From the NCBI GenBank assembly GCA_017617295.1, contig JAFZWN010000084.1, positions 7,142 through 71,141 of the forward strand: 64,000 bases of DNA, read 5' to 3'. Of the stretch, positions 10,810 through 46,338 are shown piece by piece (positions within the stretch are counted from its first letter, which is position 1; each line of letters starts with the position of its first letter). The position numbers and the translations under genes were made by a program. Origin of the DNA: Clostridiales bacterium. Lineage in GTDB: Bacteria > Bacillota > Clostridia > Saccharofermentanales > Saccharofermentanaceae. Under the pieces are notes generated by a model that saw nothing but the letters and a program-made list of their open reading frames with translations, had not been told where the DNA came from and ran no database searches.

Positions 10810-10957
10810 GTCCCTGCTGTTTCATATGAAACCGCAGCGCACGCTGTCCCTATTCATGTACATAAAAACAGCGCTTTTTGCAGAAGATCAGGGACAAACC
10901 CGCCTCTGTCCCTACCTTGGTACATATAAACGCGGTTTCACGAGCAAAATCAGGGAC
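10810..10957. repeat. mosaic palindromic repeat, locus 1 (truncated inverted unit + 50-nt unit + 12-nt linker + 50-nt unit)
   Basis: Units 10846-10895 and 10908-10957 both read GTCCCTA..GTACATA.AAA..GCG.TT....ATCAGGGAC. The linker is AAACCCGCCTCT. 10810-10845 is a truncated inverted unit. The same family occurs at 25737-25848. Confidence 0.85.
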
Positions 10958-25736: not shown

Positions 25737-25848
25737 GTCCCTGATTTGGAGCGTGAAACCGCATTTTTATGTACCACATTAGGGACAAAGGCGGGTTTGT
25801 CCCTACCCTTGTACATAAATCTGCGGTTACAAGAAGAAAATCAGGGAC
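25737..25848. repeat. mosaic palindromic repeat, locus 2 (inverted 50-nt unit + 12-nt linker + 50-nt unit; long hairpin)
   Basis: 25737-25786 is the reverse complement of the unit seen at 25799-25848. The linker AAAGGCGGGTTT is the reverse complement of the locus-1 linker. The site is a convergent intergenic position. Confidence 0.85.
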
Positions 25849-44020: not shown

Positions 44021-44068
44021 GCTAATTTTGATTAGCCCGATTATAGGCTAATTTGGATTAGCTGTCAA
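44021..44068 (-). promoter_or_regulatory. consensus sigma-A promoter with two TetR-type palindromic operators
   Basis: Minus strand: TTGACA (44068-44063), 17-nt spacer, TATAAT (44045-44040). GCTAATTTGGATTAGC (44047-44062) fills the spacer. GCTAATTTTGATTAGC (44021-44036) lies just downstream of the -10. Confidence 0.85.
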
Positions 44069-44082
44069 GCGTGAGAAAAAGA

Positions 44083-44447
44083 TGTACCACGTTTTGCTGA
44101 AAAATAGTGGTTTATATGGTACAGGTATATGGTACATTCGGGCAGATGTACCATATTTTTGCGTTGAACTGCGGATCATATGGTACCGGTATATGGTACA
44201 CGCGGTTGGGAATACTTAACGAGACTTGTCTTTCAGATGTACCACTAAAACCTCAAAAACACCGATCTCTCAGGTACCAACCTCTGGTACATCCGGGCAT
44301 TTGTACCACTAAAATGCCGAAAACACCGATTCCGCTGGTACCAACCTCTGGTACATCCGAAAGACTCCTCGATAATACAAGCTGCATCAATCAGCCTCAT
44401 ACTACTCACCACTCTGGTACATCCGAAAGACTCCTCGAAAATACAAG
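44083..44447. repeat. array of four 54-nt units bounded by TGTACCA...TGGTACA, plus a duplicated 36-nt tail
   Basis: Units are 44083-44136, 44147-44200, 44238-44291 and 44302-44355, each exactly 54 nt. Pairs 1/2 and 3/4 are 64 nt apart. The tail CTCTGGTACATCCGAAAGACTCCTCGA.AATACAAG occurs at 44346-44381 and 44412-44447. Confidence 0.9.
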
Positions 44448-44488: not shown

Positions 44489-44514
44489 CAAAAAAGCGCC
44501 TGCAAAAAGGCGCT
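44489..44514 (-). terminator. intrinsic terminator of the Na/Pi cotransporter gene
   Basis: Minus strand: AGCGCC-TTTTTGCA-GGCGCT followed by TTTTTTG. Confidence 0.75.
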
Positions 44515-44562
44515 TAACACTGTTACGAACACCGCAGCTTCAGGCGCTTTCGGCGAAAAAGA

Positions 44563-46338
44563 TCACTTCGCGGCTTTGGACTCGGCGAGCATGTATTTCT
44601 TGAGATAATGCTCGTATTTCATCTCGCTGGCGTGGTCCTTACGCTGCTTGAAGTCGTGCATGTATGTCGAACTGTTGCCTGTATTGAGATGAGTGGAACG
44701 GTAGGCGATGGCCACGATGTTCATGCTGTGATCGGCGATCCTGCCGCAGCTGTAGAGGATGTCGTTGAAGACGAAGCCCTGCTCGGCTGTGCACGTGCCT
44801 TCGGCGAGCCTCTCGACGTGGGAAGCCTTGAAAGCGTCACACATCTCGCTTATTACTATCCTAAGGGGGCCGACCTCGTCTGCTTTGTCCGCTTTATCGG
44901 AGAGATAGCAGTCGAGAGATAGGGTATATACTTCGCGGACGGCGTTTATTATCCTGTTGAGCTCATCCTGCGCGCCTTCGGAGAACGAGAGCTGCTTGGT
45001 CTCAAGCTCCTCGGCGGAGTTGGCCATGTAATTGGCGTGGTCAGCGATCCTCTCGATCTCTCCTATGGCCTGGAGCATCTTCGATGACTTGTTCTTGTCG
45101 ACGGAAGACAGGTGGTGAGTGGTCGTAAGGGTCATGAGATATGAACCGATATGGTCCTCGTATCCGTCGACCAGCTCCTCGTTCTTCTTTATGAAGTTAT
45201 AGTCTTCCTCGTTATAGCCGTTCAGGAGCATCATGGTGGCCTTATCAAGGCCTTCACGCGCCTTGGTGATCATCTTGGTGACTGAATTGGAACACTCGGC
45301 GACGGCGATAGGGGGAGTGAGCATGAGACGTTCGTCGAGCTTGAACTCCTGCTCCTCGTCCGTTTCCTTTACGATAAGGTGCGCGATCTTTACGAGGACC
45401 TTGCTGAAAGGGAAGAGGAGGATCGTATTTACTATGTTGAATATCGAGTGGTAGGCGGCGATGCCGACGATACCGATGGTCTTATCCAAAAAGGAGAAAT
45501 GGAAGATCGCGTTCCCGCCGTAGAAAAGAACGAGCCAGATAAGAGTACCGACGAGCTTGATCGTAACATGGATAACGGTAACTCTCTTGGCATCGCGGTT
45601 AACGCCGATGGATGAGAGTATGGCGGTCATGCAGGTACCTATGTTCGCACCCATGATGATCGGGATTGCCATGCCGTATGTGAGGCTTCCCGTGAGCGAG
45701 AGCGACTGCAGGATACCGATCGCGGCGGCGGAACTCTGGATGATGCCCGTTATGATCATTCCGGCGAGAACACCGAGGATCGGGTTTTTGAATGCCGTCA
45801 GGATGTTCGTGAAGCTGTCCATCTCGCGGAGCGGAGCCATCGAGCCGGACATAAGCGTCATGCCTTCCATCAGGATCGCGAATCCGATGAGCATATTGCC
45901 GATATCCTTTTTTCTCTGCTGCTTGGCAGTCATTATGAGGATGATACCGATCAGAGCGAAGATCAGTGAGAAACATGTGGGCTGAAGTAGTCTCAGTATA
46001 AAATTGTCGCTGCTGCTGATACCTGACAGCGAGAGTATCCATGCGGTCAGTGTCGTTCCGATATCCGAGCCGAAGATGACGCCGACCGTCTGCGACAGTT
46101 CCATGATGCCGGAGTTAACAAAACCGACGAGCATGACCGTCATCGCGGATGACGACTGGATGGCGATCGTAATGACCGATCCTATGAGAAGTCCCTTGAA
46201 GTTATTATCGGTTGCTTTCTTGAGAAGTTTCTCGAGCTTGCCGCCCGCCGTCTTTTTAAGTGAATCCGAGAGTACACTCATTCCGTAGAGGAAGAATGCG
46301 AGTCCGCCGAAAAGCGTAACAAACGAAAAAATATCCAT
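44563..46338 (-). CDS. Na+/phosphate cotransporter family protein with PhoU-like C-terminal domain
   Basis: 591 aa. Starts MDIFSFVTLFGGLAFFLYGM. Multiple TM helices with duplicated QSSSA motifs. Cytoplasmic helical PhoU-like tail. Confidence 0.85.
   Translation of the reverse strand: MDIFSFVTLFGGLAFFLYGMSVLSDSLKKTAGGKLEKLLKKATDNNFKGLLIGSVITIAIQSSSAMTVMLVGFVNSGIMELSQTVGVIFGSDIGTTLTAWILSLSGISSSDNFILRLLQPTCFSLIFALIGIILIMTAKQQRKKDIGNMLIGFAILMEGMTLMSGSMAPLREMDSFTNILTAFKNPILGVLAGMIITGIIQSSAAAIGILQSLSLTGSLTYGMAIPIIMGANIGTCMTAILSSIGVNRDAKRVTVIHVTIKLVGTLIWLVLFYGGNAIFHFSFLDKTIGIVGIAAYHSIFNIVNTILLFPFSKVLVKIAHLIVKETDEEQEFKLDERLMLTPPIAVAECSNSVTKMITKAREGLDKATMMLLNGYNEEDYNFIKKNEELVDGYEDHIGSYLMTLTTTHHLSSVDKNKSSKMLQAIGEIERIADHANYMANSAEELETKQLSFSEGAQDELNRIINAVREVYTLSLDCYLSDKADKADEVGPLRIVISEMCDAFKASHVERLAEGTCTAEQGFVFNDILYSCGRIADHSMNIVAIAYRSTHLNTGNSSTYMHDFKQRKDHASEMKYEHYLKKYMLAESKAAK

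What the first reader, a model, noticed from the sequence alone, without database searches (positions are those of the whole stretch)
44083..44447. Array of four exactly 54-nt units bounded by the inverted heptamers TGTACCA...TGGTACA; 13 GGTAC-core sites in 365 bp
This lies between the Na/Pi-cotransporter terminator and the TetR promoter. Four units are 44083-44136, 44147-44200, 44238-44291 and 44302-44355. Each starts with TGTACCA, ends with TGGTACA, is exactly 54 nt long, and carries a third GGTAC(A/C) 12-13 nt before its right end. Units 1/2 are near-identical in their right 23 nt (ATATGGTAC[A/C]GGTATATGGTACA). Units 3/4 are about 86% identical over 58 nt. Both pairs have a 64-nt period, about 6 helical turns. 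A 36-nt tail is duplicated again at 44346 and 44412. The heptamer would be expected about 0.04 times by chance in this span. No SD-led ORF explains the array, and the two track ORFs only mirror the DNA repeats. The motif differs from the adjacent TetR operators (GCTAAT-N4-ATTAGC). Possibilities include phased binding sites for an unknown regulator or nucleoid protein, iteron- or arm-type recombinase sites, miniature TIR elements inserted in tandem, or a modular sRNA with alternative hairpins.
Basis: seen in the sequence. Interest (0 to 1): 0.62.

Follow-up and report, generated by a model that had tools for sequence, protein, structure and literature searches.

The report
Private mosaic intergenic repeat family
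The four-unit array upstream of the tetR promoter is real, but it is one of 13 scattered copies of a non-coding, modular repeat found almost only in this uncultured species, so it is an ordinary kind of "junk or selfish" DNA in a new sequence family and not a control site for its neighbouring genes.

Summary
There are four exact 54-nt units, TGTACCA-N40-TGGTACA, each with a third GGTAC arm, where shuffles give none.

The array is not unique to this locus. The genome holds 37 such units at 13 intergenic loci, next to unrelated housekeeping genes. There are two homologous module types, A and B, usually ordered A(2-3)-spacer-B(2). All 18 unit-to-unit linkers are exactly 10 nt.

The family is absent from 299 other genomes of the same order. 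The exception is one congener with two single units, in which all three arms have changed together (GGGGTAC). I found no matches in public genome, metagenome, viral, plasmid or phage collections.

The array is non-coding, has no Rfam match and shows no covariation. Single units fold no better than shuffled sequence. A second strain carries one array with about 1.7% SNPs, close to the synonymous rate, and one SNP lies inside an arm.

tetR orthologues in 11 congeners keep the promoter and operators but have no array. I therefore read the array here as an insertion 15 bp upstream of the -35 box.

Best reading: a new BIME/BOX/MITE-like mosaic repeat. It spreads as blocks and expands by local duplication, and its arms probably serve as cis sites for an unidentified protein. 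No RAYT transposase, matching IS or target duplication was found.

The parts
44083..44136 (+). Unit A1 (54 nt): left arm TGTACCA, internal arm TGGTAC, terminal arm TGGTACA
   Evidence: nhmmer E 9e-14
44137..44146 (+). 10-nt junction linker TTCGGGCAGA (family consensus TYCGGGCAGA; exactly 10 nt in 18 of 18 junctions genome-wide)
44127..44156 (.). A-A junction palindrome ATATGGTACAT-N8-ATGTACCATAT. This is the only strongly stable hairpin of the array (ssDNA -8.2 kcal/mol, z -6). It is followed by T5, so the scan also flags it as terminator-like on the + strand.
   Evidence: (I9)
44147..44200 (+). Unit A2 (54 nt)
44201..44237 (+). 37-nt spacer between the A block and the B block. It varies between loci (37-80 nt) and is related to the spacer at genome locus C84.
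44238..44291 (+). Unit B1 (54 nt); its internal arm is AGGTAC here
44292..44301 (+). 10-nt junction linker TCCGGGCATT
44302..44355 (+). Unit B2 (54 nt)
44346..44381 (+). Tail copy 1: terminal arm plus flank, CTCTGGTACATCCGAAAGACTCCTCGATAATACAAG. Its 5' part is complementary to 44228-44244 (17 nt, 94%), giving the B-B block extended inverted ends.
   Evidence: D3, I2
44412..44447 (+). Tail copy 2 (97% identical to copy 1, 66 nt downstream). A local partial duplication that carries a 13th GGTAC arm.
   Evidence: D3, I3
44040..44068 (-). tetR promoter TTGACA-17-TATAAT, not part of the repeat. The array starts 15 bp upstream of the -35 box. The operators GCTAAT-N4-ATTAGC lie at 44021-44036 and 44047-44062.
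   Evidence: (D4)
44494..44515 (-). Intrinsic terminator of the Na/Pi-cotransporter/PhoU gene (44563-46338, minus strand). This is the right-hand boundary of the intergenic region and is not part of the repeat.

Best explanation
The array is one copy of a lineage-restricted, non-coding, modular interspersed repeat family that exists at the DNA level.

**Building block (shown).** The repeating period is 63-64 nt. It consists of a left arm (G)ATGTACCA, a roughly 27-nt interior, two direct arms TGGTAC-N7-TGGTACAT, and a 10-nt linker. Two homologous versions, A and B, differ mainly in the interior.

**How it spread (inferred from copy similarities).** Blocks of one or two units were copied to new intergenic sites. 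These sites are mostly terminator-proximal gene 3' ends, where insertions do little harm. Blocks then expanded or contracted locally by unequal recombination or replication slippage between the repeated arms.

**Role of the arms (inferred).** The three arms are the cis-acting sites needed for amplification. They are probably recognition sites for a trans-acting DNA-binding enzyme or protein that I could not identify.

**At this locus (inferred).** The element inserted between the terminator of the upstream gene and the tetR promoter. The promoter and both operators are intact. It most likely has no dedicated regulatory function. At most it displaces DNA upstream of the -35 box, or adds weak hairpins that could stop read-through.
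For: **Dispersal within the genome.**
- 33 exact-pattern units, 37 nhmmer units and 36 covariance-model units lie at 13 intergenic loci.
- The flanking genes are unrelated: PHP, GGDEF-EAL, DapA, PurD, citrate synthase, O-antigen ligase, POR and Hsp70.
- Array orientation relative to neighbouring genes is inconsistent, and many arrays lie between convergent genes or next to terminators.

**Restricted distribution.**
- Among 301 genomes of the order (51 genera), only G000 (34 units), G102 (2 units) and one chance hit match.
- Scans of genome, metagenome and viral collections gave only unrelated singletons.
- Plasmid and phage collections gave no match.

**Insertion at this locus.** Eleven congeners keep the tetR gene and ten of them the operator pair, in roughly 110-190-nt intergenic regions without any array.

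**Modularity and mode of growth.**
- The order A(2-3)-spacer-B(2) recurs at about six loci, and solitary A-A or B-B blocks and hybrids also exist.
- Neighbouring A units are 96-98% alike. B units and the C5/C6 A doublets match best position by position across loci.
- The local 36-nt tail duplication fits local expansion.

**Arms as cis sites.**
- The GTACC core is invariant in all 111 arms of the 37 units, while interiors are only 40-80% conserved.
- All three arms change together in the G102 variant (GTACCCC...GGGGTAC-N6-GGGGTAC).

**Neutral behaviour.**
- A second strain has 5 SNPs in 296 nt of the C138 array, one of them in a terminal arm. The adjacent gene has 11 differences in 1695 nt, all synonymous.
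- Decayed units exist at C84 and C138.

**Not coding, not a known RNA.**
Against: - No mobilising enzyme was found. There is no Y1/RAYT transposase, no PDDEXK_3 nuclease, and no larger element bounded by the same ends. The four tyrosine recombinases in the genome are not near any arms.
- No target-site duplication is visible.
- No empty site could be shown at nucleotide level, because the nearest species are too distant (TetR is at most 63% identical). All contigs from other samples that carry an identical TetR carry the identical array.
- The strict 10-nt linker length and the arm invariance could instead reflect selection for a host function.
- The genome is a 92%-complete assembly of 156 contigs, so a partner gene could be missing.
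Confidence: 0.62

Rival explanations
1. The arrays are functional chromosomal binding platforms. A species-specific DNA-binding protein (nucleoid-associated, insulator-like or boundary-marking) would recognise clusters of three TGGTACA half-sites, two direct and one inverted within about 37 bp, repeated every 64 bp. The host would maintain the arrays for that purpose.
For: - The arm cores are invariant in 37 units while the interiors vary.
- Linker length is exactly 10 nt in 18 of 18 junctions although the linker sequence varies.
- All three arms co-vary in the G102 variant, which a single hairpin cannot explain.
- Single units are not thermodynamically special, so sequence rather than structure seems to be what is conserved.
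- Unrelated phage, satellite and integrase-adjacent regions use GTACC arms in similar two-plus-two layouts, which look like protein sites.
Against: - The arrays are absent from 99 of 100 congeners and from all other genera of the order, so no conserved host function requires them.
- They sit beside unrelated genes with no positional logic.
- Between-strain divergence is near the synonymous rate and includes a hit in an arm.
- Decayed copies are tolerated.
- No candidate binding protein was identified.
Confidence: 0.14
2. The junctions are core-type site-specific recombination sites. Inverted 9-12-bp arms (ATATGGTACATC / GATGTACCACAT) flank a central region of fixed length, here 6 bp, as in dif or lox. 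The extra direct arm would be an accessory site. The arrays would be gene-less mini-cassettes, assembled, shuffled and dispersed by a tyrosine (Xer-like) or serine recombinase.
For: - The spacing between inverted arms is strictly constant (18 of 18 junctions).
- Array ends retain an arm plus a linker-like half (GCAGA on the left, TCCGGGCA on the right), as hybrid att sites would.
- The mosaic and hybrid units, and the variable spacer between A and B blocks, fit module exchange.
- In the related GTCCCT family, units occur flipped between their inverted ends.
Against: - No recombinase is adjacent to or associated with any array. The four PF00589 genes have no arms nearby.
- I found no sequence within 6 mismatches of the Bacillus subtilis or E. 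coli dif sites in the assembly, so the junction could not be compared with the genome's own dif.
- The breakpoints of hybrid units fall inside units, not in the linker.
- A 64-bp circle is too small to serve as an excised intermediate (general knowledge of DNA stiffness).
Confidence: 0.1
3. The arrays act at the RNA level, as REP-like 3' stabilisers or weak bidirectional terminators at operon ends, or as a family of small hairpin-rich RNAs.
For: - Many copies lie just after stop codons or terminators. Both G102 single units lie in short intergenic gaps, one of them between convergent gene ends.
- The A-A junction hairpin followed by a T-run is scored as terminator-like.
- The whole array folds better than shuffles on both strands (z -4.1 and -4.3).
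Against: - There is no Rfam match.
- There is no compensatory covariation beyond the invariant 7-bp stem.
- The only promoter-like site in the intergenic region is the tetR promoter itself, which points away from the array.
- Array orientation relative to flanking transcription is inconsistent. Here the array lies downstream of the upstream gene's own terminator.
- Single units fold no better than shuffles.
- One-nucleotide indels are common (53- versus 54-nt units).
Confidence: 0.08

Closest known systems
REP sequences and BIMEs (bacterial interspersed mosaic elements) of Enterobacteria and Pseudomonas, and REPINs mobilised by RAYT
   Same: - Short extragenic units with inverted symmetry.
- Clustered into mosaics with conserved linkers of fixed length.
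- Concentrated at gene 3' ends and between convergent genes.
- Lineage-specific sequence families.
   Different: - No RAYT/Y1 transposase gene is present.
- There is no GTAG-type tag.
- All units in an array point the same way, instead of alternating.
- Single units are weak hairpins with a roughly 35-nt loop.
- Copy number is low (37 units), and each unit has three arms.
BOX elements of Streptococcus pneumoniae (boxA-boxB(n)-boxC)
   Same: - Modular, non-coding intergenic repeats.
- A variable number of tandem internal modules in a fixed module order. Here that order is A(1-3), spacer, B(1-2), tail.
   Different: - The modules here are homologous to each other, and each carries its own inverted ends.
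- Homology to BOX was not tested.
- The BOX comparison rests on my general knowledge.
Bacterial MITEs (Correia/NEMIS, RUP, ERIC)
   Same: - Small non-coding elements bounded by terminal inverted repeats with 5'-TG...CA-3' ends.
- Dispersed in intergenic DNA.
- Absent from related species.
   Different: - No target-site duplication is visible.
- No parent IS with matching ends was found.
- The elements form head-to-tail arrays with a fixed 10-nt linker.
MIRU-type dispersed minisatellites of mycobacteria
   Same: Tandem 50-100-bp units present at a few dozen intergenic loci, with the number of units per locus varying.
   Different: - MIRUs are oriented with operons and often carry small coupled ORFs (general knowledge).
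- Here there is no frame or orientation rule.
dif/pdif modules and other recombinase core sites
   Same: The junction has inverted arms around a spacer of invariant length.
   Different: - I could not find the genome's own dif site for comparison.
- No associated recombinase was found.
- The 'modules' between sites are only about 35 nt and carry no genes.

Membership tests
REP/BIME/REPIN (RAYT-associated) | Multi-copy extragenic units clustered in mosaics | tested here: met
   37 units at 13 intergenic loci, with conserved 10-nt linkers.
REP/BIME/REPIN (RAYT-associated) | Each unit is a stable imperfect palindrome (hairpin) | tested here: not met
   Single units as ssDNA give z -1.1 to -1.9 against shuffles. 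Only the A-A junction palindrome is stable, at -8.2 kcal/mol and z -6.
REP/BIME/REPIN (RAYT-associated) | A cognate RAYT (Y1 HUH transposase, PF01797) in the genome | tested here: not met
   No PF01797 match in the 92%-complete assembly, while the control search rang in 6 of 14 reference genomes.
REP/BIME/REPIN (RAYT-associated) | Conserved GTAG-type tetranucleotide next to the palindrome | tested here: not met
   The arms have a GTAC core (TGTACCA/TGGTACA) and no conserved GTAG. That GTAG defines the family is from general knowledge.
MITE | Terminal inverted repeats bounding a short non-coding element | tested here: met
   Inverted ends of 7-13 nt. No conserved frame and no protein or Pfam relatives.
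MITE | Target-site duplication flanking the insertion | tested here: not met
   Inspection of the flanks of all 13 loci shows no direct duplication. The element edges are uncertain by a few bases.
MITE | An autonomous IS with the same ends | tested here: not met
   The assembly holds no 0.5-6 kb segment bounded by matching ends. No related sequence was found in genome, metagenome, viral, plasmid or phage collections.
MITE | Presence/absence polymorphism at orthologous sites | tested here: inconclusive
   The array is absent upstream of tetR in 11 congeners, but these are too distant to align. Every contig recovered from other samples that carries a flanking gene carries the array at all four loci checked. 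It is identical at three loci and differs by 5 SNPs in a second strain at the fourth.
BOX-like modular repeat | Fixed module order with a variable number of tandem modules | tested here: met
   A(1-3)-spacer-B(1-2) at about six loci, plus solitary blocks.
BOX-like modular repeat | Sequence homology to boxA, boxB or boxC | not tested
   No reference BOX sequence was compared. No Rfam family matched.
Structured small RNA or riboswitch | Conserved secondary structure supported by covariation, with its own promoter and terminator | tested here: not met
   No Rfam hit. Zero compensatory pairs in the consensus fold. The extended helix is only marginally above shuffles. The only promoter-like site in the region is the tetR promoter itself.
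Structured small RNA or riboswitch | Transcription as a discrete RNA | not testable with these tools
Recombinase core site (dif/lox-like) | Inverted binding arms around a central region of fixed length | tested here: met
   18 of 18 junctions have exactly 10 nt between the heptamers. This equals 6 nt between 9-nt arms.
Recombinase core site (dif/lox-like) | A cognate recombinase encoded nearby or co-distributed | tested here: not met
   The four PF00589 genes (C55, C147, C141, C94) have no arms within 1.5 kb beyond single chance sites. Co-distribution with G102 was not tested.
Operator array of the adjacent TetR regulator | Motif matches the regulator's conserved operator and is conserved with the gene | tested here: not met
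   The GCTAAT-N4-ATTAGC operator pair is conserved upstream of tetR in 10 of the 11 congeners checked, the 11th being cut at a contig end. The GGTAC array is absent in all 11.

The most novel reading that the evidence does not exclude
The arrays may be strings of site-specific recombination sites, that is, gene-less mini-cassettes. Each junction (a 9-12-bp arm, an invariant 6-bp centre, and an inverted arm, plus one accessory direct arm) would be a core site for a host Xer-like or still unidentified recombinase. The A and B interiors would be the shuffled 'cargo'. The same machinery would also drive the genome's other private families, which have swapped ends: GTCCCT/AGGGAC with a 12-nt linker, GTATACC arms, and the GGGGTAC variant in G102. 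That would be a hairpin- or dimer-guided mobilisation system working without RAYT or a DDE transposase.
Probability: 0.1. Interest if true: 0.65.

Novelty: new member of a known kind. Interest (0 to 1): 0.3.

Why it matters
In practical terms, the array should not be annotated as a regulatory region or an sRNA gene of the tetR or Na/Pi locus.

Biologically, the finding adds one well-delimited example to the poorly catalogued small mosaic repeats of uncultured bacteria. The contig names suggest a gut or rumen source, but that is a guess.

Three features make it a usable test case for how such repeats move when no RAYT transposase is present:
- three arms per unit that co-vary between species;
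- a strictly fixed 10-nt junction;
- at least three other private repeat families in the same genome, built to a similar plan but with different ends.

Such repeats also break short-read assemblies, as several copies here lie near contig ends.

Tried and rejected
- **Known RNA family.** An Rfam scan of the region at permissive thresholds gave only sub-threshold noise.
- **Coding repeat or decayed gene.** No frame stays open across loci. There are no Pfam hits, and the 117-aa ORF has no protein relatives.
- **CRISPR-like array.** The "spacers" are conserved between loci.
- **Regulon or operator.** The flanking genes are unrelated, and the array is absent from tetR orthologues.
- **REP/RAYT.** No PF01797 gene is present.
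- **Nuclease-cassette arms** (lead from earlier finding e1-2408193). No PF13366 gene is present.
- **Parent IS with the same ends.** None was found. Self-BLAST of the genome revealed only other small repeat families.
- **Restriction-site avoidance or enrichment of GTAC.** Observed-to-expected ratios are 0.8-1.2, which is unremarkable.
- **dif-like site.** No sequence within 6 mismatches of the Bacillus subtilis or E. coli dif sites was found, so no comparison was possible.
- **Strain polymorphism.** Six look-ups of flanking proteins found contigs from other samples for five; at all four array loci covered, the array has the same structure. It is identical at three and differs by 5 SNPs at the fourth.
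- **Literature search by motif.** It returned only irrelevant papers.
- **Pattern hits outside the lineage.** All are unrelated in their interiors. Some are GTACC-arm clusters in phage or satellite-like contigs and next to a putative integrase gene. I treat these as analogues only.

Full report
**Observation**

- The pattern TGTACCA-N36-44-TGGTACA occurs exactly four times in the 64-kb window, all in this intergenic region. Each match is 54 nt, and none was seen in 100 shuffles.
- The heptamer occurs 17 times in the window against about 3 expected, and 10 of the 17 are here.
- Each unit has a third (T/A)GGTAC 13 nt before the terminal one. Both unit pairs have a 64-nt period. A 36-nt tail is duplicated 66 nt downstream.
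- On the left is a consensus tetR promoter (TTGACA-17-TATAAT, minus strand, 44068-44040) with two GCTAAT-N4-ATTAGC operators. On the right is the terminator of the Na/Pi-cotransporter/PhoU gene.

**The array is not unique**

The window is part of a 2.96-Mb assembly of 156 contigs that is 92% complete.
- The same unit pattern occurs 33 times in that assembly. A profile not tied to exact arms finds 37 full units, and a covariance model finds 36. They lie at 13 loci, all intergenic.
- The units fall into two clearly homologous types:
  - A: GATGTACCACATTTT..CTGAACTGAGATTATATGGTACAGGTATATGGTACATC
  - B: GATGTACCACTAAAA..AAAACACCGATCTCACTGGTACCAACCTCTGGTACATC
- Hybrids with a B-type left part and A-like right arms also exist.
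- The usual layout is two or three A units, a 37-80-nt variable spacer, then two B units. It is seen at C5 (this window), C7, C47, C63 and C76, and in decayed form at C84. There are also solitary A-A blocks (C6, C129), B-B or single B blocks (C28, C35, C67, C104) and a rearranged copy (C138).
- All 18 unit-to-unit linkers are exactly 10 nt (consensus TYCGGGCAGA), although their sequence varies.

**Genomic context**

- The nearest genes at ten loci encode unrelated functions: a PHP-domain protein, a GGDEF-EAL protein, DapA, PurD, citrate synthase, an O-antigen ligase, a POR subunit, an Hsp70-like protein and two proteins with no Pfam match.
- Array orientation relative to neighbouring genes is inconsistent. 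Many arrays sit between convergent genes or directly beside intrinsic terminators. One follows a tRNA gene and its terminator.
- This is the usual distribution of tolerated intergenic repeats, not of a regulon.

**Distribution**

- The strict pattern found only chance-level, unrelated singletons among representatives of about 185,000 species, in JGI metagenomes and in IMG/VR.
- BLAST against plasmid and phage collections found nothing.
- Among 100 genomes of the same genus, 143 of the family and 301 of the order (51 genera), a looser architecture pattern (TGTACC-N26-31-GGTAC-N8-GGTAC) and the covariance model hit only G000 (34-36 units), one other congener, G102 (2 units), and a single chance match.
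- The two G102 units are single copies in short intergenic gaps, one of them between convergent gene ends. They keep the architecture, but all three arms read GGGGTAC/GTACCCC. Their consensus aligns with type A far better than shuffles do (z about 6).
- The family is therefore older than this species. It is patchy, and it has expanded only here.

**This locus as an insertion**

- tetR orthologues in 11 congeners (50-63% protein identity) lie behind intergenic regions of only about 110-190 nt without GGTAC arms. Ten of them retain the GCTAAT-N4-ATTAGC operator pair, and the eleventh is cut at a contig end.
- Here the intergenic region is 627 nt, and the array begins 15 bp upstream of the -35 box.
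- Contigs carrying an identical TetR from other metagenome samples carry the identical 627-nt spacer, so no polymorphism could be seen at this locus.

**How the family grows**

- Neighbouring A units at one locus are one another's closest relatives (96-98%). This points to local tandem duplication or conversion.
- B units, and the A doublets of C5 and C6, are most similar position by position across loci. This points to dispersal of multi-unit blocks.
- The 36-nt tail duplication in the window is another local event.

**What is conserved, and under what pressure**

- The GTACC core is invariant in all 111 arms of the 37 units, whereas interior columns are 40-80% conserved.
- Part of this contrast is selection bias from the search. 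Even so, decayed relics with broken arms exist at C84 and C138.
- Between two strains, the C138 array differs at 5 of 296 positions (1.7%), one of them inside a terminal arm. The adjacent gene has 11 differences in 1695 nt, all at third codon positions.
- That looks like roughly neutral drift of resident copies.
- Arm invariance across copies, together with neutral drift within copies, is what one expects if intact arms are required for making new copies. This step is inference.

**RNA, protein and structure**

- Rfam gives nothing.
- No reading frame stays open across loci, and the ORFs over the array have no relatives.
- The consensus fold is only the invariant 7-bp terminal stem, with zero compensatory pairs. 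An extended 15-bp helix is marginally above column shuffles, which related sequences can achieve without any structure.
- The whole array folds better than shuffles on both strands (z about -4), as any set of inverted repeats would.
- Single units as ssDNA are not special (z -1.1 to -1.9). Only the A-A junction palindrome 44127-44156 is stable (-8.2 kcal/mol, z -6).
- The two direct arms co-vary with the inverted arm in G102, and a single hairpin does not require that. I therefore favour recognition of the arms by a protein over an RNA structure. This is inference from only two species.

**Search for a partner enzyme**

- There is no Y1/RAYT transposase and no PDDEXK_3 nuclease.
- No 0.5-6 kb segment is bounded by matching ends.
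- No long multi-copy element was found in the assembly.
- The four tyrosine recombinases have no arms nearby.
- No target-site duplication is visible.
- The junction has 9-12-bp inverted arms around a centre of fixed length, here 6 bp, which resembles a recombinase core site in form. I keep this as the boldest reading. I found no sequence within 6 mismatches of the Bacillus subtilis or E. coli dif sites with which to compare it.

**Comparison with known kinds**

The family works like the small mosaic repeats of bacteria (REP/BIME, BOX, MITEs, MIRU). It fails the defining tests for REP/RAYT: no RAYT, no GTAG tag, and weak unit hairpins. It also fails those for classical MITEs: no target duplication and no parent IS. 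It shares with BOX the fixed module order and variable module number. I file it as a new member of the general kind "interspersed mosaic intergenic repeat", not as a member of any named family.

**Limits**

- The genome is an incomplete metagenome-type assembly.
- The nearest other species are too distant for base-level definition of an empty site.

**Verdict**

The locus-specific interpretations (regulator sites for tetR or the Na/Pi gene, or an sRNA) are not supported. Interest is modest.

Noticed in passing
window 10846-10957 and 25737-25848 (also about 17 other loci in the genome): A second, more abundant private repeat family. It has 50-nt units GTCCCT-N38-AGGGAC joined in pairs by a 12-nt linker (AAACCCGCCTCT or its complement). 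I counted about 40 units (43 pattern matches, a few of them chance hits inside genes) in 19 doublets. Units occur both in direct and in flipped orientation between their inverted ends. The family is absent from 99 congeners. Its consensus shows weak similarity to type A of the GGTAC family in one orientation (p about 0.005).
   Followed up: partly
genome contigs C33:23170-23361, C47:174-364, C66:23286-23476, C128:28587-28620 (outside the window): A third small family of 34-35-nt units TGTACCA-N20-21-TGGTACA with A/T-rich flanks. It forms tandem arrays of 3-4 units downstream of genes and uses the same heptamer arms as the finding.
   Followed up: partly
genome contigs C97:1-490, C144:1-411, C142:7735-8140, C31:7754-8072 (loci L124, L125): A fourth repeat of about 400-490 bp, with copies 94-97% identical and mostly at contig ends. 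It has five or six units GTATACCA-N20-TGGTATAC followed by a GC-rich stretch of about 200 nt that contains a long inverted repeat. It has no Rfam match.
   Followed up: partly
L105 (G102:C2:116639-116690) and L106 (G102:C13:13061-13112): These are the only relatives of the family found outside this genome. They are two single units in another congener, with arms GTACCCC...GGGGTAC-N6-GGGGTAC, lying in short intergenic gaps. At L105 the gap lies between convergent gene ends and one ORF ends inside the unit.
   Followed up: yes
window 44021-44068: The tetR promoter is a perfect TTGACA-17-TATAAT, with one operator in the spacer and one downstream of the -10 box. The operator pair GCTAAT-N4-ATTAGC was found upstream of tetR in 10 of 11 congeners examined. 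The 11th is cut at a contig end.
   Followed up: yes
L031 6800-7150, L039 500-860, L055 2300-2700 (reverse strand), L003 and L011: Unrelated contigs caught by the pattern carry clusters of GTACC(A) arms in two-inverted plus two-direct layouts. One lies just after an ORF whose end looks AlpA-like. In Xenorhabdus and Photorhabdus one lies directly upstream of an ORF starting MPKLTDKEIRAW, which resembles integrase N-termini. Both resemblances are from memory and were not tested. They look like iteron or arm-type protein sites.
   Followed up: no
L055 1-300: This metagenome contig begins with a CRISPR array with the repeat GTTCACTGCCGCATAGGCAGCTTAGAAG. It is unrelated to the finding.
   Followed up: no
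G066 (congener): The backwards control of the GTCCCT pattern matched three times in this one congener. It may carry its own private repeat family with related ends.
   Followed up: no
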